Positions 2,201 to 54,492 of a DNA stretch of 64,000 nt are shown here, in pieces; position 1 is the first letter of the stretch; every line of letters begins with the position of its first letter. The position numbers were made by a program, and so were the translations under genes. The notes under the pieces are model-generated. The model ran no database searches and had not been told where the DNA came from. It saw only the letters and a list, made by a program, of their open reading frames with translations. Source of the stretch: Pecten maximus (Eukaryota); the NCBI RefSeq assembly GCF_902652985.1, contig NC_047029.1:22444001-22508000 (forward strand). The letters run 5' to 3'.

Positions 2201-2309
2201 CACAGGTGCCTGACTCGTTTTATAAAATAATAACATATAGAGTACATATAAATGAGATTTATATGTACTCTATATGTTATTATTTTATAAAACGAGTCAG
2301 GCACCTGTG
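2201..2309. mobile_element. Palindromic MITE, CACAGG termini, 7-bp TSD (P/Galileo-like)
   Basis: Near-perfect fold-back cacaggtgcctgactcg...cgagtcaggcacctgtg. TSD gagtaac at 2194-2200 and 2310-2316. Second copy at 54367-54492. Confidence 0.85.
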
Positions 2310-3729
2310 GAGTAACGTTAACCCTGCATGCATAGGCTTCGAACTAGCCACCTTTCGCTCTCATTGCAAATATCCTTTCACTAGGCTAAAGGGAAATTCC
2401 CTCTAGTTTGAGCTAGGGGATCTTATTCTCTCTACTTTTACGTAATCATGATTTATGGATAGTGGATTGGGAATTTGTGTGAAGTCCCTGTGAAACCGAC
2501 CAGATCAGTACCAAAGAGAAGTCAGGTCCTACATTTTGACCATTCCCTCTAGATCTGAATCAAGTATTTAGTATTTATCACAGCCTAATCGTACATTTAA
2601 AAAGCGCTTTATAATCGATTCCAATGTTGTATCGGTGCATAAATAGACATTGAATGATGTTACAAATTAAAATTAGACAATTCCATTACTTTAGTTCCTG
2701 ACCCCAAGTACCTGTGACATGAACGTACTTCTGGGCACGAACGTCCGAGTGCCCATGTAAATGCCACTTTCTATGTATTATATTAAGAATCTATCGAACC
2801 GAGATGATACACTTTTCATTGTTAGTAGACTGCATACATACCATTCAACGACAACAGCAACGGAGGCGAAACTAAACCACATGACTTACATGTGACTATA
2901 TAGGTATGATACTAATTACAGCGGGTGAGGAAAAAAAACCGGAATGCACTCAGGCGTGAAGAGATTTTTCATAATATTTTGTATTTATTAGGTCATATCT
3001 CCGTTATTACTGAATGGATTTTTGTTCGGACACCAGCAGTAAAAGGGTTGATTTATCCACTTTAAAATGGTATAAGTTATATTTAACAGTATCAAAAATT
3101 GGAAGTGAAAGTGGTGGCCGGAATGAACCCATATGGAATAAAAATGTCGATATTTACAACTGTTTTCGTTATAATAAATACCCATATCTCAAATAATACT
3201 GAACAGATTTTTGTTTGGGAACCATCAACAAACGAAGAATGTATTACCCTTTCACATGGTATAAACTGTTTGAATACATGTTCGATATTAATCGCAAGAG
3301 TGGTGGCCGGAATGAATTGAGGTGGTGTGAAAAAATAGCGAAATCGTCAAAGTTGCATGTAAATTTCCATCTTTATTGGCCCATAACTCTTTTATTACCG
3401 AACCGATTTCTGTTCGAGACATACTCTAGACAAGATAATTTTATATGCTTTAAACTGATATAATTTTTATTGATATTCATTACAAATTCGGTGCAAAAGT
3501 GGTGGCCGGAATGAACCTAGGTGAAATGTATTCAACCACAGGGACACGTTACAATAGTAATGTATACCCACAGCAGCGCCGATTAATGTTGAAAATGCAG
3601 CCTTCTAATACCAATGGTATAAATTTAGAAAATAAAACAGTCAAAACTTGAAATGAAGCTATGTTGTGCCATTCATTGACAATGAACTACAAACGGCGAA
3701 TCTGTTTTTTTGTGGGTTTTTTCTTGCAG

Positions 3730-3765
3730 CAGAGACCTATATACTATAGTATATATAGGTCTCTG
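3730..3765. mobile_element. 36-bp palindromic micro-element or footprint with 7-bp TSD
   Basis: cagagacctatata...tatataggtctctg flanked by cttgcag at 3723-3729 and 3766-3772. Confidence 0.75.
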
Positions 3766-4508
3766 CTTGCAGTAATTATGAAATTGATGAATTTGAATCG
3801 ATGGTGATATAAATGATATTGTTGTTCAATTTGCACTTTCTATTGCTATGGATCCTAGTTTAGAGTGGTCTCTGGTCATTAATTTTATAATTTTACAATT
3901 ATTTCTATATCTTAAATCAGTGCATTGACGCCGAAAAAAATAATTTGACGATTGATTTTTGCATGCCGCTCGTCAATTTGACGTTTGCTGCATGTAAGTC
4001 TTGTGTTTTGTCCAATATACAGACTCACCAATGTATATGTTAGCTTTGGTCATTGACACTAATTGGCCCCAAGGGGTTAATTAGAAGAGTCGTGACAAAG
4101 TCAAATTGGGTCACAGGTGAAGTCTCCAATTACCAACTTTACCTAAAGTGAAATTATGTTATTTGCAACGTAGATATATTTGCTAAAAAACAGTATATTT
4201 TTAATCATAATTTTGTATTAAATCAGTTCATGTGGAATTTGCATAATGAGGATGTTGGAATTAAAAAACATGTAAAAGAGCTATTTTGTAACATGTATAT
4301 AAAAATAAGATTCTTAAAAGTTAAATTATTACACCATTGCCAGCTCCCGGTATTCTCAGATTCAGATTCTTTTATTTCCTTGTGTAACAAGACACATTGG
4401 AGAGTAGACATATACAATAATACAATAGTACAGATAGCGATGGACAATCATACCAATCAACAATTTATGTATATATATTTTTATATAGAAGAACACATTA
4501 CATGGTAT

Positions 4509-4539
4509 CAGAAACTTATATTTAGTATATAGGTCTCTG
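4509..4539. mobile_element. 31-bp palindromic micro-element or footprint with 7-bp TSD
   Basis: cagaaacttata...tataggtctctg flanked by atggtat at 4502-4508 and 4540-4546. Confidence 0.7.
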
Positions 4540-6177
4540 ATGGTATATCATTAGATAATAGCAGAATGCAATACATTTACTTAAATGATGTCATTCATAT
4601 TAAATGATAATCACAGTGTTTATACACATGTACTTAAACATTCATTACATTGACCACTATATTTTCAAAATTTTTAAAAAGAAATTCTTCATACAAATCC
4701 TCGATAAAAGCCCCAGGATAAAATCTATATGAACACTGACATATTTATTAAGTATAAATAATATTCATATACATTTATCATAAATGCATAATAAAGTAAT
4801 ACAGTATACAATATGTTTCATTATAAATACAAGCATGAAATACTAGTACTATAGAAACGGTAAATAGTGTCACTGCCTACTTTATTTATATACACATACG
4901 ATTTTTACATATTTATTCATATTGCATTCATGTAGCTTTATAGGGACCACTGATTTGTAGACAGACAGTACAGCGATATATACTTTATATCATATAATTA
5001 TATAATCTCAACCATTCGACATGTCTTTTAAACTGATATACAGCTCTGATGTGTCTGTATCAACCTTAAAAATTATATATGATTATTTCGGCCTCATAAC
5101 TCCGTCCCCCAATTTGTTCGCAATTTCATGACATTGACATAGAAAACAGATAAATAACACATAAATAAATATTATAGAGGCATCGACCAAGCCATATAAG
5201 TAACTATAAGTAATATATATCATATACGAAATTTATATTATATGCGAGACCGTCAAAGGCTCGTTGTTTTTAACAGTGAAAACATCCAACGATGAAATCA
5301 ACACCGCACAACGATAGATTAGTTATTGCTGAACATGCAATATATCCACCTATATATATACATGGTGCTGGATTGCCGTGGCCTGTTTTAAGAGCTCTCT
5401 CTCATCCTCTTGGAAGTGGTGGATTTCACAAATAAATATACGCAACTGAAACGTTTGTCCAATGGTGAGATAGGATTTTGCGCCTTAAACATTTGTCTTA
5501 CTGCCTCAATTGTTTTCCTCCAGGGGTTTAACACCGTTATAAATTTCACATCCCAGAAAAATTCAATTATAAAACAAAATCTACACCCTCTGCATACATA
5601 TCTCCTCCCAATATCTCAATAAAAATATTTGTAATTTAATGCATTGTAGCATCTGTCATCACGCTTTCATTCATTTCTTCGTATTTCTCAACAGTCTTCA
5701 AGCTGTTTCTAGAAGTCGAATAGTTTTTCCGATAAGAACCAAAACTTTAAGTTTGTCCGGACAACTCCTCCTAAACCGAAGGGCCGATTTCAATGAAACG
5801 TCACACACATATAGAGGACCATGTGTAGATGTGCATCTTACTTTTGACATCACCGAATATCTTCAATCAGAATGGCATGCCAATACTTACATTGTAGATG
5901 ATTTTGTAAAGGACCTTGTACTTGACTTGTTGTTGTATTAGAAAATTGCTCATACCCAGTGATATCTAGAAATGTACTAATAAAATGTAATTATAGTATG
6001 TTAATGAATATAATTAAAAACAAAAAACAAAAACAAAAAAAACATTAGGGTCATTTGATGTGAATTCTTGTATTTCAATCAGAATTCTATTGTAATGGCT
6101 GCCATGTTTTTTTTTGGTATACATCATAGAATCTCCAAGACAACTGTAATTGAAGAATGTCAGGCCTCTCAGAAGAA

Positions 6178-8489: not shown

Positions 8490-11400
8490 TCAAGGTGGGC
8501 GGGGCGACTTGCTCCGGCGTATATTATTGGTTCTTGCACTGCTGAGGGCTGCCTTCTTGGTGATGTTTCGTTTTGCCATGGCGCGGAGCTCCTCGTGGGT
8601 CAAAGGTCGAATATCGCCTTCATCTTGGACTACTATTATATCCGACAGGTCATCGTCATCCCTGTAATTGGAGAACAAATTGGTCATGTAAACACTGTAT
8701 CCTAATACTTGATCTAGAGTTTTTTTTAACTCATAGAAGCTACGTATTTGTTCGTCCTTATAAATAAAACCGCCGAGAAGACTCGCGTGACAGCCGACTG
8801 TGACGTACAGCCAGACACCAAATCCGTGAATTTGTATACCTAAATAGTATTAAAGTATAGTACGTAGATACTTGCTTTATCTTTAACAAATAACGTATAG
8901 AGAAAGTGTATATATCATAATCTTACGCAGAGGCTGGTGTCTGTATAGAGATGGGAGGAGGGATATCAGTTCGGATGAACTGTGTGATTGGCGGGGCTTC
9001 CTGTCCCTTCTTGTCCTTCTTCTCCGGTTTCGGCGGATTTTGCTTTAAGTGAAAAATACAGCAGTTCGTTAATATCTACTAATAAAGCAATGATTATTCA
9101 TTTTCTATAGCGCCCATTCTGCCGTTCGTGGTTTGTATCAAGTTCATTGCGAATTCAAAAATCCTAATTTAAATGCCAAATATTTCAACTTAAGAAGTTT
9201 ATCCAACCTTTTGACTAAAAGTGTATAACAGGAGGCTAAATGAGCCTGTATCGCTCACCTGATCTGCAATTTATACAGCAATGGTTACATTGCAACAGTT
9301 GATTAAGGTCATGGATGGGGAACTCAAATCCATACACTCTAATTCAGTAATTGTTTCATGTAAACTATCATAACCCTTGAATTCGCACCCAGAAACGAAT
9401 ATTTGCATATTTAAGAACATTCGACCTGTGTGACCTTGAAAATAGATCAAGGTCATTCATTTGAACAAGGTTGGTAGCATGAGGCTTTGAACCCAGGATA
9501 GTATTAGTATCCGACCCGGGAGTAGGACCAGTATCTGACCCGGGAGTAGGACCAGTATATGACCGGGGAGTAGGACCAGTATCTGACCCGGAAGTAGGAC
9601 CAGTATCTGACCCGGAAGTGGGACCAGTATCCGACCCGGGAGTAGGACCAGTATCCGACTTGGGAGTAGGACCAGTATCTGACCCGGGAGTAAGACCAGT
9701 ATCTGACCCAGGAGTAAGATTAGTATCTGACCCGGGAGTGAGACCAGTACCTGACCCGGGAGTGAGACCAGTATCTGACCCGAGAATGAGACCAGTATCC
9801 GACCCAGGAGTAGGACCAGTATCTGACCCGGGAGTAGAACCAGTATCTGACCCGGGAGTAGAACCAGTATCCGACCCGGGAGTAGGACCAGTATCTGACC
9901 CGGTAGTAGGACCAGTATCTGACCCGGCAGTAAGACCAGTATCTGACCCGGGAGTATAGGACAAGTTTCTGACCCTGGAGTTAGACCAGTATCTGACCCG
10001 GAAGTAGGACCAGTACCTGTCCCGGGAGTAGAACCAGTATCTGACCCGGGAGAAGAACCAGTATCCGACCCGGGAGTAGGACCAGTATCCGACCGGGGAG
10101 TAGGACCAGTATCTGACCCGGGAGTGAAACAAGTATTTTACCCGGGAGTGAGACCAGTATTTTACCCGGGAGTGAGACCAGTATCTGAGCCGGGGGTGAG
10201 ACCAGTATCTGACCCGGGAGTAAGACCAGTATCTGACCCGGGAGGGAGACCAGTATTTTACCCGGGAGTGAGACAAGTTTCTGACCCTGGAGTTAGACAA
10301 GTATCTGACCCGGAAGTAGGACCAGTATCTGACCCGGGAGTATGACCAGCATCTGACCTGGGAGTATAGGGCCAGTATCTGACCCGGGAGTATGACCAGC
10401 ATCTGACCTGGGAGTATAGGACCAGTATCTGACCTGGGAGTAGGACCAGTATCTGACCCGGGAGTGAGGCCAGTATCCGACCCGGGAGCGAGACCAGTAT
10501 CTGACCCGGGAATGAGGCCAGTATCTGACCCGGGAATGAGACCAGTATCTGACCCGGGAGTGAGACCAGTATCTGACCCGGGAGTGAGACCAGTACCTGA
10601 CCAAGGAGTGAGACCAGTATCCGACCCGGGAGTAGGACCAGTATCCGACCCGGGAGTAGGACCAGTATCTGACCCGGGAGTGAGACCAGTATCTGACCCG
10701 GGAGTAGGACCAGTATCTGACCCTCGAGTATAGGACCCGGGAGTAGGACCAGTATCTGACCTGGGAGTGAGACAAGTATCCGACCCGGGAGTAGGACCAG
10801 TATGTCGGCGTACCTTGAGGTGAAGATACTGCTGTATCTGTAACATCTCCATGGTCCTCTGTTCCATGATGCCCATGTAGTGGAGGATGTTTTTGTCTGA
10901 GATCGCCTCCTCGCTTCCCAACAAAGACTTGATAGTGCTCGGGTCACAGTGAATCGTATCGAACAGTGACGCGACACCACTTCGGAGTTCATCCAGCACG
11001 CCCTTAATGACGTCTATCTTCGTCTGTGCAACCTCAGTTTCGGCAGTCACTCGAGCGGACTTCGACTGCAAAGGTCGATTTGTCAACATTATAACGCATT
11101 TTTAACACATATTTGAAACATATTTCACTATCATAATTTGGACCAAAATGTTCGGTCAGATAAGGTCCATCCCAAAGATGATGAATTAATATTTAGTAAG
11201 ACGCCGAGACGAAACATTAAAATTTCAAGCCCCACCCCAATAACAAAACAATCAGACAGGCTCCTACTCTGCAGTCAAATTATCTAACCTTTGTCAGGCC
11301 AAGCGCTATTCACACCTTTTAAGGCCCCTGTGCTGCACTCAAATAGTATTGCCCTTGTCAGGTCCCTGCGCTGCAGTCTAATACTCTAATCTTTGTCAGA

Positions 11401-14400: not shown

Positions 14401-17400
14401 ATGCACAGGGACACGTTACAATAATAATGTATGTATAAAATATATGGGGGGTCGATATAAACATAACACAAGGGACGAAGCTCCGATTCTGGAAATCCCA
14501 GGGCGCCAATTTCAAATATAAATTAACAACACTTACTTTCAGTCTTTTTTCACGGGAATTGCTACTATCGTTTCGTTATAAGTTATAATTTTCACACATA
14601 TAATCCTTAATTGTCCATCTTTTCTCATACTCCCCATTTTAAAGCACTTTGTCGGAAGTTTTTAATATTCCCTCCAAAAAAGTGATGCTATGGACCGGAA
14701 GTTGCGCAACACCTTGGCAGGGCCGCAGAAACGTTGTATCATTGAATATATCATATCACAATTTACTTAGAAAAGGCCTTTCCTAATTATGGAATACGTT
14801 TGATAATTTTCCGATCACATATAAAGCGATTAATTAACGATTACTCACCAAGACACGATATCAGTCATATTTGATTAAAAAATTCCGCCAAAATTATTCA
14901 CTCCGGATATGACTCTTTCCGATTGCCTCGGGAGTTTTCTTACCTTTGGCTGCTATTGTCCATCACCTTCCGAAAGGTGTTGCGCAACTTCCGGTCCATA
15001 GCATCACTTTTTTGGAGGGAATATTAAAAACTTCCGACAAAGTGCTTTAAAATGGGGAGTATGAGAACAGATGGACAATTAAGGATTATATGTGTGAAAA
15101 TTATAACTTATAACGAAACGATAGTAGCAATTCCCGTGAAAAAAGACTGAAAGTAAGTGTTGTTAATTTATATTTGAAATTGGCGCCCTGGGATTTCCAG
15201 AATCGGAGCTTCGTCCCTTGTGTTATGTTTATATCGACCCCCCATATATTTTATACATACATTATTATTGTAACGTGTCCCTGTGGTCCATGTAAGTTTG
15301 TGGCTTCTGTTGACACATCTTCATGGTTGTACACTCATTTGCAGGTTGCGCAGAGGACACGTATACAACTTATATAAAAACTTAACTGGATGATTGACCC
15401 AATGCTTATTAAGCCTAGATTTAAAAGTATTAAGGGACGGGGAATCTACTACTGGTGTGGGAAGTCGATTCCATGTATTTACAGTCCTATTTTTAAAAGC
15501 TTGTCCCCTAATATTAGTGTTGTACCTAATCTTTTTAAGTTTTTTGGAATTCCCTCTAGTATTGAGGTTATCAAGTGTAGGAATTACTTGTTGGTTAGAT
15601 ATATCCAAGTTGTTAATCAGTTTATAGGTTTCAACCATGTCTGCTCTTAATCTCCTATATTCAAGTGATGGAAGTCCCAGATGACGTAGGCGTCCTGGAT
15701 ATGAGAGATCTTTTAGTGATGGAACTAATATTCGTACAATCTTAATCTCCTATTTACGATATTTTTTTCAGACTCAAATTCAAATTAATTTTCTAAATCG
15801 TAACAGCATGAACAATTTAATGGAACCGCCATAACTAACAGATATATTGTCGCCGTTTCCATACGGCAAGTTATAACGCTATAATAGTCAAGAGGAATGA
15901 CATCTACAGTCTGATTGGCTCATTCCCCGAACACCAACTCTGGTAAAGACAAAGGAAGGTGTTTATGTAGGAAGTTCTTTGAAGTTCAGTTATAGTCTGT
16001 TTCAATATATGGAATACCAGCTCAGGTAAAAAATAGGGTCAACTCAGGTATATGAATCAGAAATGGTTTTCTAAATTCCAATCACTATCGTATAGATTAT
16101 TTTACTAGTAAGAATGAAACGATAATATCATATCAATAAATAAGTATAAAATGAGTAAAAAAATAAATATTACATACATGTACATTTGTATGTACATGTA
16201 TATGGGTAATTTTATCTTATAGATATTTTTGACATGTTCACATCATCATCAATTGTCCTTATTATTTTTGGTAATGTAAAATGTATACTGCATGGTATTC
16301 ATTTCATCACTTATGTTATATGGGACAAGACGGATTTGAAGTTTTATACTTGTGTCTATACACATTTTTGTTTTGACAAATAAAATAGGTCTAAACAAAA
16401 AATAAAAAATAAAATTTTCAAAGCACTATGCCTAACTATATATTTCACTATTGATCATGACAATATTAGATTAAATTTAACGTACTAATTATATATATTA
16501 TTATTAATAATGACCTGTGCGTTCTCCATTTCGTGTATGATTAACAAAAAAATATTACTAATAACTAATCCTGAAACAGATACACACAAGAATGTTACAA
16601 TTTTTCTACAAGAACTGATCTATACAGTACTTATATGATAATCTAAACAAATCTGGAAATATCAATTTATGTATAGGTAATTGAAGTAAACCTGTACTAA
16701 TCAAACCTGATTACAGCTACAACTTTACAAGAATTTTACAATTCTACAATATCATAATTGTCTATACAAATCTGAAAAACTTACAAAGTTAATCAATATG
16801 AAAAAATCAAAGTCTAACTAATGTACAACTGCTTTACAGTGAAAAAGTAAGAATTTAAGATTCTGTTATTATGCCAATTTAAATGCTAATTCAAATGACT
16901 ATAATCAGATATATATTTACAATATAAATGAAAAATGATACTGGGCTGAATTGATTTAAAAGAATGTAAATTAAACAGCGGTATTAATGTATTGTTTGAA
17001 TATTTACACTTAATCTGAAAACAACCACAAATTAAATCAATGTGACACAAACTTTTACAAAATGTTGAAGTTTGATAAACTTTTTTTCAGAAAATATAAT
17101 TTAACAGTATTCAACGTACAACTGTTTTACAATTCAAGATTCAGTAAGTATTTGCATGTATATGTCTGCCACGATGTTGATAATTCAAATATCAAATCAA
17201 AATGTGATGATTTTCCAAAGGGTGCTTAGTTTTATACACTATTTGTGAAACAGTTTGGCAATCATTAACAGCTAATGATTTTCTGATCACCTAACAGGTG
17301 AATTGATTTACCTGTGTTCTTACTCTGAGGATATTTCTGTAACAGACTATAACTCCCTATCAACACACCTTAACCCCTATGTAAACACCCCACCCTAACC

Positions 17401-23411: not shown

Positions 23412-23604
23412 TACATGACAATGAATAATGATACAATGATACAATGTAACAATGATACAATGTAACAATGATACAATGTAACAATGTAACAATGATACAA
23501 CACATGATGTAACAATGATACAAAGTTACAATATAACAATGATACAATGTACGATGTAATAATGATACAATGTAACAATGATACAATGTAACAATGATAT
23601 AATG
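23412..23604. repeat. 8-bp-based minisatellite (acaatgat/acaatgta)
   Basis: Direct inspection. Confidence 0.9.
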
Positions 23605-24266: not shown

Positions 24267-40059
<15,793 letters not shown>

Positions 40060-41530: not shown

Positions 41531-41763
41531 AGATACGGAAATAAATTTTCCAAATAAGGACGTGTTTTTTTTTTATGTTGAAAAATATGAAATTTATTGA
41601 ATTTGGGCATCCCCATACACTCACTGATTTATGATTCATTTTGCTATACAATTGCACCAAACGAAAACTGCACATAGTTACATGTATATGAAAAAAAACA
41701 ACACAAAATAATCGCTGACTTATGTACAGTACAGCTAAAACAGCCTGGTTTACAATACAAAAT

Positions 41764-41787
41764 CAGAGACATTTGTATACGTCTCTG
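41764..41787. mobile_element. 24-bp palindromic micro-element or footprint with 7-bp TSD
   Basis: cagagac..gtctctg flanked by acaaaat at 41757-41763 and 41788-41794. Confidence 0.65.
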
Positions 41788-43929
41788 ACAAAATGTAACT
41801 TAGTGCTTTTTACTTTCGAATTTGCTAGTTACAGATAAAAAACAATATTCTGATAAATTGAAAAAATACCAACGACTGCGTTATACTAAGACAATCGTCA
41901 AAATAGTTTAAAACTATCACAACCGCTTAATTCTGTCATTCCAAGAAGGCTATTTTCACCACAGGGATGCCGACTTAACATACATAATTATGTACAAAAG
42001 AAAAAACACTACAAATCATCTTTTGATCCCTGTGATTATGCATATAAAGCTATCAAAAATAACAGAGTCGACCTAATTTTCGAATGGAATTGCTGAAGAT
42101 TCAAAAAATGAAATGTTTTTTTTTCTTTCTAAAATACAGCGCAGGCGCTTGAATATAAAATGTAAAGTTTTATTTTAGATTTTGCAGAGGTCTAGGTACT
42201 GCGAAAATGTAGTTTCTACAGTATCCAGACTCCTGCCAAATCTAAAAAGTTAATATTAACATTGTATCTATGCACGCGCCTAGCTGTGGCTGTGTTTGAT
42301 AAGAAATAGCCTATGATTTTATCGCTCCGACTCGTAGGCTTTCCAGCACTTTTTTTCTGTCATTCTGTCATCACATCATTTAACGTTCTTACAAGGCAAA
42401 CTCAGATCCATTATATTTTCGTATTATCTGCCTTTTCTTTTTAGCTAGCTCCTCCGTGTATTAGAAAATAAAATAGAAAACCAATTTTCGTTCTTCAGGT
42501 TGAGGAAAATGAGGAAAGAAAGAATTGTAGCGGTAAGGTAGTCCAAATCCGCGTGATCTGAGTCGGTCATTTATTTTCCAATGTCCCTACTTTCGATTTT
42601 CTACACTTTATATCTTGATATTTTATTGGCACAGAAGACATGCCAATAGTATATAATATAATACTCTGTATATAGATACCCTTATACGGTATATAGATTA
42701 CAAGAACACAGAGAAACTTCAAGAAAATGTTAAACACTAAAATATCGGTAGTTTAACAAAAAGTGCGGTCAAAAATTAGAACGGTCTCCATGCAAATACG
42801 ATTGCAGCACATAGAATAATGATGATAATACAACGCATTATCACTGGGAATGGGGTGTTGAAATGAGATACTTTTTAATAAAGAGAAGCTTAGACGCCTT
42901 AAAAAGTAGGTCGCTCACAGCTATTCAGTTTCGAAGAAACATGGAAGTTCATAAGATAAAACAATTTTCATACAGTCAATATATATTAAGGTGAAAAACC
43001 TAACCGACCAATACCTTTGTCAATCTCAATAAATAATATATGTCAATAGTCGTGTCACAAACTGCTAAGGTCCAAAAAGTTATATATACTTTAAACCAGA
43101 AGTCAGAACAAGCAGGCATGCAGTTAGCATTCGATCAAGCAAATTCAATTCTGAATTGTGAAATGTAAACAGTTTTCAATAACTGCTTAAACTGCAAAAT
43201 AATTGCCCATATCATGTGCAGTTGCTAGAAAACTGCCTAATTAATTGCTATCAAGAGCAGTTCAGTTTGATCTGGAATGTTAAAACTAGTTAAATTTCTT
43301 TCTTTACTTGTAAAAGGTTTACAGCACAGGCGCCTGCATCTGGTTAATATTCATAGGAAAAATCCTAACTCCTACTATAGCAACGTTGATAACTTGATAT
43401 GGTAGGAGTAAGGGCTAATATTTTTTCTTTAAAACTACAGGGGTGGGCGCGGACCTACCGTCAAAAAAAAAAAAATTGTCAGATGAAAAAAACAGACTCT
43501 CGATCCCGAGTATGACCTGTCCCATGACAGGATATGTAGTCGCGAGGCGGCTCATAGTCGGGAGAGGCTAATTTCTTTATCTGACAATTATTTTTTGTGT
43601 GTGACGTAGGTCTGCGTCTATCCCCTGTGACACTAACCACATGCATACGCTGGTGGTTTACTGGGATTAAAGTATGTATTTCATCAGACAAAAATATCTG
43701 GTGTAGGATGAATCAATCAGATCATCATTAGCTAGATTACGTATTGTAGTTGATAATCCATATTTTAATCAGATTGAGGATTAATCAGCATCGTTTAGTC
43801 AATAAGCATCGAAAGTATTTAATTGACAGGTTAATTTCAGAAAATTGTATACACTTGCATAATTGTGTTCATTTTGGCGAACGTTATTTCTTGGAGACGA
43901 TTTGGACTTATTCTAGTCATTAACGATAT

Positions 43930-54366: not shown

Positions 54367-54492
54367 CACAAGTGCCTGACTCGTTTTATAAAATAATAAT
54401 TAAATAAGAGTACATATAAATGAGATTATATATATCTCATTTAAATGTACTCTTATATATTATTATTTTATAAAACGAGTCAGGCACCTGTG
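54367..54492. mobile_element. Palindromic MITE, same family as 2201-2309, 7-bp TSD
   Basis: TSD gttttac at 54360-54366 and 54493-54499. Confidence 0.85.

What the first reader, a model, noticed from the sequence alone, without database searches (positions are those of the whole stretch)
3723..4546. 24-36-bp palindromes with exact 7-bp TSDs: candidate P-superfamily excision footprints
Seen: three CAGAGAC...GTCTCTG-type micro-palindromes (3730-3765, 4509-4539, 41764-41787), each between a different perfect 7-bp direct repeat. They seem too short for typical MITEs. Established: Drosophila P transposase cuts leaving 17-nt overhangs, and end-joining often retains ~15-18 nt of each TIR between the TSDs; Galileo (P superfamily) makes 7-bp TSDs. 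Inference: these are natural excision scars implying P-like staggered cleavage in this lineage, at a density of 3 per 64 kb here.
Basis: partly seen in the sequence, partly recalled or inferred. Interest (0 to 1): 0.7.

Follow-up and report, generated by a model that had tools for sequence, protein, structure and literature searches.

The report
P-transposon excision scars, family-specific cut depth
These three tiny mirror-image inserts belong to thousands in this shellfish genome that match the ends of P-element-type jumping genes still present there, and are likely the repair scars left when copies jumped out; their lengths suggest that sister families cut 17, 18 or 19 bases into their own ends, not always the 17 known from fruit flies.

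Summary
Observation confirmed. All three palindromes lie between exact 7-bp direct repeats (0 in 30 shuffles). The genome holds 2,899 exact-motif matches against 86 for the control; 42 of 50 unselected sites have a 7-bp duplication (at most one mismatch) and show 43 different junctions. Parents exist: 9-14-kb elements with a P-type transposase, and 1.4-4.7-kb non-autonomous copies, with the same ends and 7-bp TSDs. None of 200 TSD-flanked elements was 57-643 bp. Another individual carries the empty allele of site 1. The scar reading is supported, with corrections. Arms stop at parent nucleotide 17 in the family of site 1, at 19 in a sister family (19 of 22 retrieved joins are exactly 19|19), and probably at 18 in a third, each just before an internal copy of the terminal motif. 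One asymmetric family does not clearly fit that rule. Three per 64 kb is a local cluster (genome about 3 per Mb). No full-element allele was seen at a scar site, and cutting was not assayed. This scan's unchecked notes report similar scars in other genomes; eight literature searches listed no such report.

The parts
3723..3729 (.). Site 1, left copy of the 7-bp target-site duplication
   Evidence: a contig of run X3 skips 43 bases (36+7) with 7 letters fitting either side = empty allele
3730..3765 (.). Site 1, likely excision scar of family C: left arm = parent nt 1-17, right arm = parent nt 1-17 with one extra dinucleotide inside it
   Evidence: the same 36-mer at two other loci with their own TSDs
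3766..3772 (.). Site 1, right copy of the TSD
4502..4508 (.). Site 2, left copy of the 7-bp TSD
4509..4539 (.). Site 2, likely scar: right arm = family C nt 1-17; the two bases beyond it and the left arm fit a related family (D) whose parent was not found; either 17+14 blunt or 19+12 with 2-nt microhomology
   Evidence: lies in multi-copy DNA, and contigs in three runs join across it with other letters between (weak)
4540..4546 (.). Site 2, right copy of the TSD
41757..41763 (.). Site 3, left copy of the 7-bp TSD
41764..41787 (.). Site 3, likely scar of the asymmetric T2/G2 family: right arm = 12 nt of the G2 end; left arm reads as the T2 end with a 2-nt insertion (assignment inferred)
41788..41794 (.). 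Site 3, right copy of the TSD

Best explanation
The three palindromes are the outermost bases of the two ends of P-superfamily DNA transposons, joined between a 7-bp target duplication, and are likely donor-site scars left when the transposase cut the element out with a long staggered cut and end-joining repair sealed the two leftover single-stranded tails. Shown: TSDs, parents with the same ends, P-type transposase with catalytic residues, heterogeneous junctions, a length gap, an empty allele, and a sharp family-specific limit on how far an arm follows its parent (17 nt in family C, 19 in T, 18 in A). Inferred: that this limit is the position of the cut on the non-transferred strand (firm for T and C, thin for A); that repair used 1-4-nt microhomology, blunt joining or short templated insertion; that the scars cannot move again, because a unit no longer than two overhangs would fall into two unpaired strands when cut and lacks the inner part of the TIR. 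Least certain: that the cut is placed by an internal copy of terminal nt 3-7, which starts at nt 18, 19 and 20 in C, A and T and would re-pair with the transferred strand as in the Drosophila structure; a fixed protein ruler per family fits equally.
For: 2,899 vs 86 matches. TSD: 31 of 50 unselected sites exact 7 bp, 42 of 50 within one mismatch, 1 exact 8 bp. Parents: family A 13,671 bp with a 965-codon open frame plus a 1,357-bp derivative; family T 10,312 bp; family C non-autonomous copies of 3.7-4.7 kb (one 9.3 kb) closed by 7-bp TSDs in 14 of 16 fetched stretches and sharing their end and internal pieces at 82-88% with the C18 transposase locus; T2/G2 about 9.4 kb, paired by matching 7-bp flanks (1 kb of its interior not fetched). 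Transposases carry PF21787/21788/21789 and match PDB 6P5A at E 1.1e-13 with D303, D528, E531, K400, S409, F443, D444, N447 aligned (same motifs in four families). Arm limit: 1 of 356 arms reaches parent nt 20, and it overlaps the other arm. T: of 22 distinct retrieved sites 10 are parent 19|19, 9 are 19|19 with a variant parent end found at C13, 1 is 19|19 with one substitution, 1 is 37 bp, 1 is 19+6+19; all 22 have exact 7-bp TSDs. C: in blunt or insertion joins 43 of 68 arms stop at 17, 2 at 18 (both the 32-mer with a dinucleotide slip), none at 19. A: 6 of 26 such arms at 18, none longer. Empty allele at site 1. Same architecture as fly donor-site junctions (PMC2895639 Table 1).
Against: No allele with a full element at a scar site, nor a scar at a parent site, was seen (contigs only, 3 informative runs each, loose-end tables cut by 433 and 77 rows). 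Some junctions recur at many loci: over 80% of the depth laid on site 1 in run X1 lacks each of two 2-base pieces, i.e. the 32-bp form dominates, and 33- and 38-mers recur; a mobile micro-element would also give this. Untrimmed blunt joins are common here but were 0 of 66 in the fly table (1 blunt join after trimming; Rad51 mutants). The family samples were retrieved by similarity to one natural scar each, so junction frequencies are biased. Family A rests on one 18|18, one 17|17 and one 18|16 join plus 30-mers. In T2/G2 24 of 26 joins are microhomology-ambiguous, and the mirror 33-mer is easier to explain if the G2 end keeps 18-19 nt, not the 17 that the internal-repeat rule predicts. The D-family parent was not found. 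No cleavage assay.
Confidence: 0.87

Rival explanations
1. The palindromes are true micro-MITEs: a few TIR-only units arose once each and were then moved as units by the P transposase, making their own 7-bp TSDs.
For: Identical 30-, 32-, 33- and 38-bp units recur at many loci with different TSDs; summed contig depth on these units is tens to hundreds of times the flanking depth; the empty allele fits any insertion.
Against: 43 distinct junctions among 50 unselected sites, the commonest seen 3 times. Recurrent units are exactly parent ends joined blunt or at microhomology, including both mirror products of an asymmetric parent and the variant that matches a variant parent end. They lack the inner TIR and the internal repeat kept by all long parents; in the fly structure the inner TIR is bound and re-pairing is required for transposition (PMC7776569 section 8).
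Confidence: 0.07
2. They are extreme internal-deletion products of aborted gap repair from a sister chromatid, with no long staggered cut.
For: Aborted synthesis followed by end joining is the main repair outcome in wild-type flies (PMC2895639 passage); internally deleted 1.4-4.7-kb copies exist here, and one 644-bp one-sided copy.
Against: Aborted synthesis gives no reason for a one-base-sharp limit that differs by family, nor for no elements of 57-643 bp among 200 (36 of 42 incidental, untargeted elements were 18-54 bp and the other 6 were 909 bp or longer).
Confidence: 0.04
3. They are scars as in the best explanation, but every family cuts at 17 as in flies, and longer arms are templated insertions.
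For: Family C stops at 17; templated insertions of 1-15 nt are common in fly junctions; T2/G2 and most A joins are ambiguous.
Against: In family T both inserted dinucleotides would have to equal parent nt 18-19 on both arms at 19 of 22 sites, follow a variant parent end when it differs at nt 19, and never reach nt 20; no 17|17 or 18|18 T join was found among 178 small elements.
Confidence: 0.08

Closest known systems
Drosophila melanogaster P element and its donor-site repair junctions (PMC2895639 passages and section 7 with Table 1; PMC7776569 passages and section 8; PDB 6P5A/6PE2)
   Same: TSD + up to one overhang of each TIR + microhomology, blunt or templated-insertion junction + TSD; homologous transposase with RNase H and GTP-binding insertion domains; clustering of sites recalls local hopping and hot spots.
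   Different: 7-bp rather than 8-bp TSD; retained arm 17, 18 or 19 nt by family rather than 17; parents 9-14 kb with a single long transposase frame, no THAP match and a second unknown ORF; scars are natural, fixed or segregating, and number in the thousands; untrimmed blunt joins are frequent.
Galileo and 1360/Hoppel (P superfamily; PMC3698922 passages)
   Same: 7-bp TSD; single-frame transposase core; palindromic target preference (T at position 2 and A at 6 in 76% after symmetrising 167 exact TSDs).
   Different: The scar-making families have short TIRs (about 25-30 bp), not Galileo's long ones. The long-TIR P-type families in this genome have another terminal motif and gave no element under 104 bp among 10 found up to 1.5 kb. 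No excision scars or cut offset for Galileo appeared in my searches.
Zebrafish Pdre2/THAP9 (PMC10983969 passages)
   Same: Non-insect P-type element shown to excise.
   Different: 13-bp TIR, 8-bp TSD; the passages read describe flanking deletions after excision and give no cut offset.
MITEs such as BuT5 (PMC3698922 passages)
   Same: Non-coding, TIR-bounded, TSD-flanked, tied to a P transposase.
   Different: BuT5 is about 1 kb with a homogeneous interior; these are 18-56 bp, heterogeneous, and end where the parent's inner TIR begins.

Membership tests
P superfamily (parent elements) | P-type transposase: split RNase H domain with GTP-binding insertion | tested here: met
   PF21787, PF21788, PF21789 above cut-off in 3 of 3 scar-clade ORFs; only PDB match 6P5A, E 1.1e-13
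P superfamily (parent elements) | Catalytic D230/D303/E531 and GTP-contact residues | tested here: met
   D303, E531, D528, K400, S409, F443, D444, N447 aligned, K385 read as R; D230 lies outside the aligned stretch and is assigned by motif; the N447 row was mis-anchored and is not used
P superfamily (parent elements) | 7-8-bp TSD and terminal inverted repeats | tested here: met
P superfamily (parent elements) | N-terminal THAP domain | tested here: inconclusive
   No THAP match in the long ORFs or in the precomputed domains of the 120 listed relatives; an upstream exon was only inspected by eye
P-element excision footprint | Both TSD copies kept, with only terminal TIR bases between | tested here: met
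   42 of 50 unselected sites; 1 of 356 arms reaches nt 20
P-element excision footprint | Heterogeneous microhomology/blunt/insertion junctions | tested here: met
   43 distinct of 50; classes per family
P-element excision footprint | Arm limit of 17 nt | tested here: not met
   Met for family C only; 19 for T, probably 18 for A; hence a variant, not the fly case itself
P-element excision footprint | A full element formerly at the same site | tested here: inconclusive
   Empty allele at site 1 but no full allele seen
P-element excision footprint | Staggered cleavage by transposase, GTP dependence | not testable with these tools
   needs biochemistry
MITE | Homogeneous size and interior across copies | tested here: not met
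Galileo | Long, internally repetitive TIRs | tested here: not met
   Scar-clade parent ends diverge after about 25-30 nt

The most novel reading that the evidence does not exclude
The depth of the P-family staggered cut is not a constant 17 nt: sister families in one mollusc genome cut at 17, 18 and 19 nt, and the depth is set by the DNA itself, namely by where an internal copy of the terminal motif begins, the copy that re-pairs with the transferred strand in the transpososome. Thousands of natural scars record this family by family, map past insertion hot spots, and can seed new minisatellites.
Probability: 0.5. Interest if true: 0.75.

Novelty: new variant of a known kind. Interest (0 to 1): 0.62.

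Why it matters
The 17-nt staggered cut is described as a peculiarity of one enzyme, and how the cut is placed is open (PMC7776569 section 8 says that order and mechanism of cleavage are not known). Here the genome itself gives cut depth for several related transposases with intact reading frames, so 'protein ruler' against 'internal repeat' becomes testable by swapping ends between families. The scars also count past excisions that repeat annotation by size is likely to miss (inference), add small polymorphic insertions, show how a mollusc germline repairs breaks with long non-complementary tails, and at least once grew into a 1-kb minisatellite.

Tried and rejected
Chance: rejected. Terminal-motif hits within 1.5 kb of transposase domains were internal chance matches; true ends lie 2.5-9 kb away. 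A single 19-nt offset for all families was my reading after and was dropped when family C stopped at 17. The T '19+A+18' join first looked like an odd repair product; it is 19|19 with a variant parent end. The D-family parent was sought around three degraded transposase loci and by a DNA search: not found. The T2/G2 test was inconclusive. A covariance model could not be used on this genome. A genome-wide histogram outside 22-40 bp was not obtained, so the length gap rests on 1.94 Mb of selected, partly overlapping stretches. Read laying on a second cluster showed the scars shared by other runs and no empty or full allele; run X8 laid nothing. Runs with small word shares were not used. Another superfamily with 7-bp TSDs (hATw, recalled, from no call) was dropped because the parents encode a P-type enzyme. 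The structure paper and the 1997 cleavage paper were not held, so the exact base-pair register of the fly structure was not compared. No supplements were read.

Full report
Observation. The three elements are at the stated coordinates, each between an exact and different 7-bp direct repeat. A scan for the 7-base terminal motif (window 3730-3736) with TSD found these 3 and none in 30 shuffles. In the window's genome the motif pair with an 8-26-base spacer occurs 2,899 times against 86 for the control. That is about 3 per Mb, so the window is a cluster; clustering is general, with 6 of 49 gaps under 2 kb against 0.22 expected.

Unselected sample. I fetched all 50 sites listed. 31 have an exact 7-bp duplication, 42 one within one mismatch, 1 an exact 8-bp one; among the first 46, no other length from 4 to 10 gave an exact match. 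Lengths run from 22 to 38 bp with modes at 31 and 33, none at 39-40, and there are 43 distinct junctions. The target is weakly palindromic.

Parents. The genome has 44 matches to the P-transposase domain PF21787. One clade, 59-68% identical in protein to the family A enzyme, sits in elements that end in the scar motif. Family A: 13,671 bp, 7-bp TSD, 965-codon open frame, a second copy 99.7% identical over 10.2 kb, and a 1,357-bp derivative. Family T: 10,312 bp. T2/G2: about 9.4 kb with unlike ends, paired by matching 7-bp flanks. Family C, the type of site 1: 14 of 16 fetched stretches held a complete copy with a 7-bp TSD, 13 of 3.7-4.7 kb and one of 9.3 kb, related to the C18 transposase locus. 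The ORFs carry all three P-transposase core domains and no THAP match, align to PDB 6P5A with catalytic and GTP-contact residues in place, and have their closest relatives in scallops, mussels and oysters; the top hit is identical and labelled as a scallop protein.

Length gap. Across 1.94 Mb of fetched, partly overlapping and selected DNA there were 200 distinct TSD-flanked elements: 178 of 18-56 bp, none of 57-643 bp, 22 longer. Of 42 elements that were not the target of a fetch, 36 were 18-54 bp and 6 were 909 bp or longer. A full genome histogram was not obtained.

How far arms follow the parent. Only 1 of 356 arms matches a parent end for 20 nt, and it overlaps the other arm. Family T: a search with one natural 38-mer retrieved 22 distinct sites, the query among them, all with exact 7-bp TSDs; 10 are parent nt 1-19 on both sides, 9 are the same with a variant parent end that differs at nt 19, 1 has one substitution, 1 is 37 bp and 1 has a 6-base insertion between two 19-nt arms. 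Family C: in joins without microhomology, 43 of 68 arms stop at 17 and none reaches 19; four sites are exactly 17|17; the 32-mer is compatible with any offset of 16 or more. Family A: 6 of 26 such arms reach 18, none 19, with one 18|18 and one 17|17. These samples were retrieved by similarity to one scar each, so frequencies are biased. Joins with larger insertions than a longer-armed form would need were retrieved for T and C, so the missing longer arms are informative there (inference).

What may place the cut. Each parent end holds an internal copy of terminal nt 3-7, exact or with changes that a wobble pair tolerates. It starts at nt 18 in C, 19 in A and 20 in T and T2, that is, one base past the arm limit. 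In the fly strand-transfer complex the transferred strand doubles back to pair with the 5' part of the non-transferred strand, and this pairing is required (PMC7776569 section 8). So the cut would free exactly the segment that re-pairs. I wrote this down before the C and A searches but after preliminary data. The test case, G2 (repeat at nt 18 in a T-type element), was inconclusive: 24 of 26 T2/G2 joins are microhomology-ambiguous, and the mirror 33-mer leans towards 18-19 nt, which would favour a protein ruler.

Alleles. In run X3, a different sample and study from X1, a contig skips 43 bases at site 1 with 7 letters fitting either side: the empty allele. No full-element allele was seen at sites 1-2 or at a second cluster; both tables were cut and hold contigs only.

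Mechanism. Insertion makes the 7-bp TSD (shown for parents and scars). Excision would cut at each element end on one strand and 17-19 nt inside on the other, leaving each flank with a single-stranded tail of terminal TIR (inferred from the fly enzyme; PMC10983969 and PMC2895639 passages). End joining would seal the tails by microhomology, blunt ligation or templated insertion, as in Table 1 of PMC2895639. One difference: untrimmed blunt joins were 0 of 66 there (Rad51 mutants) and are frequent here. A scar no longer than two tails would fall apart if cut again and lacks the inner TIR, so it is predicted to be immobile. Recurrent junctions are the main point for the micro-MITE rival; they are all plain joins of parent ends.

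Known or new. P donor-site scars are known from fly experiments. Eight searches of the open library (listings and abstract starts only, apart from the four papers cited) showed no report of natural genome-wide P scars in molluscs or of an offset other than 17; subscription papers and Repbase were not searchable, and two key papers were not held. This scan's own unchecked notes describe similar scars in an abalone-like genome, a skate and another shellfish, with 17-20-nt offsets (consulted after my analysis); I did not test them. Verdict: real; P-superfamily excision scars at about 0.87; family-specific offsets at about 0.75; offset set by the internal repeat at about 0.5. New variant of a known kind, interest 0.62.

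Noticed in passing
L092:5028-6071 (G000:C1): A 1,044-bp minisatellite between an exact 7-bp TSD, made of 60 units of the family A terminus: 43 of 17 nt, 10 of 19 nt, 7 other. Looks like a scar that grew into a tandem array.
   Followed up: partly
L334:1436-1988, L306:631-1539, L296:1511-1566: Other arrays built on scars: a 65-bp-period array holding a 33-mer, a 909-bp array, a partial dimer.
   Followed up: no
window 2201-2309, 54367-54492, 14404-15285: Three foldback elements with 7-bp TSDs and a different terminal motif (109, 126, 882 bp); the 882-bp one holds a 350-bp palindromic element at 14670-15019; a solo end of its family starts near 3538.
   Followed up: partly
L040-L043, L046-L050, G000:C1, C2, C5, C12: Long-TIR (about 350-600 bp) P-type elements of 8.5-15.9 kb with 7-bp TSDs; ORFs beside the transposase in three of them match a PIF1 helicase, two with a PHD finger. 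This motif gave no element under 104 bp among 10 found up to 1.5 kb, so these families may not leave such scars.
   Followed up: partly
L031:6670-7812 (-), L035:1077-2198 (+), L036:8268-9365 (-): A second ORF of 366-381 codons, opposite to the transposase, in all three scar-clade families; no Pfam match.
   Followed up: no
L144, L168, L174, L052:5876, L131:1700: Full-length copies with small insertions or changes confined to the first 17-20 nt of one end, as expected from error-prone filling of the single-stranded gap after insertion or from repair of a one-ended cut.
   Followed up: no
L073:4959; L049:481 and L227-L231; L233-L244: Scars nested inside other mobile elements, including one inside the T2/G2 parent and ones copied along with their host repeat.
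   Followed up: partly
G000:C1296:7332-29122: Family T element with a 12.7-kb tandem duplication of one end and the gene; may be an assembly effect.
   Followed up: no
L073:6221, L328:1740; G000:C17, C4, C2570: A sister family (K) whose terminal motif differs at one base, with the same change in its internal repeat (starting at nt 17), also leaves scar-sized elements.
   Followed up: partly
window 9371-11101 (-): A 577-codon open frame, GC-rich, ending in 8-residue tandem repeats; the only long ORF in the window.
   Followed up: no
window 23440-23590 and 33427-33768: Short tandem repeats (16- and 33-bp periods) that mimic palindrome-plus-TSD structures in a motif-free scan.
   Followed up: no
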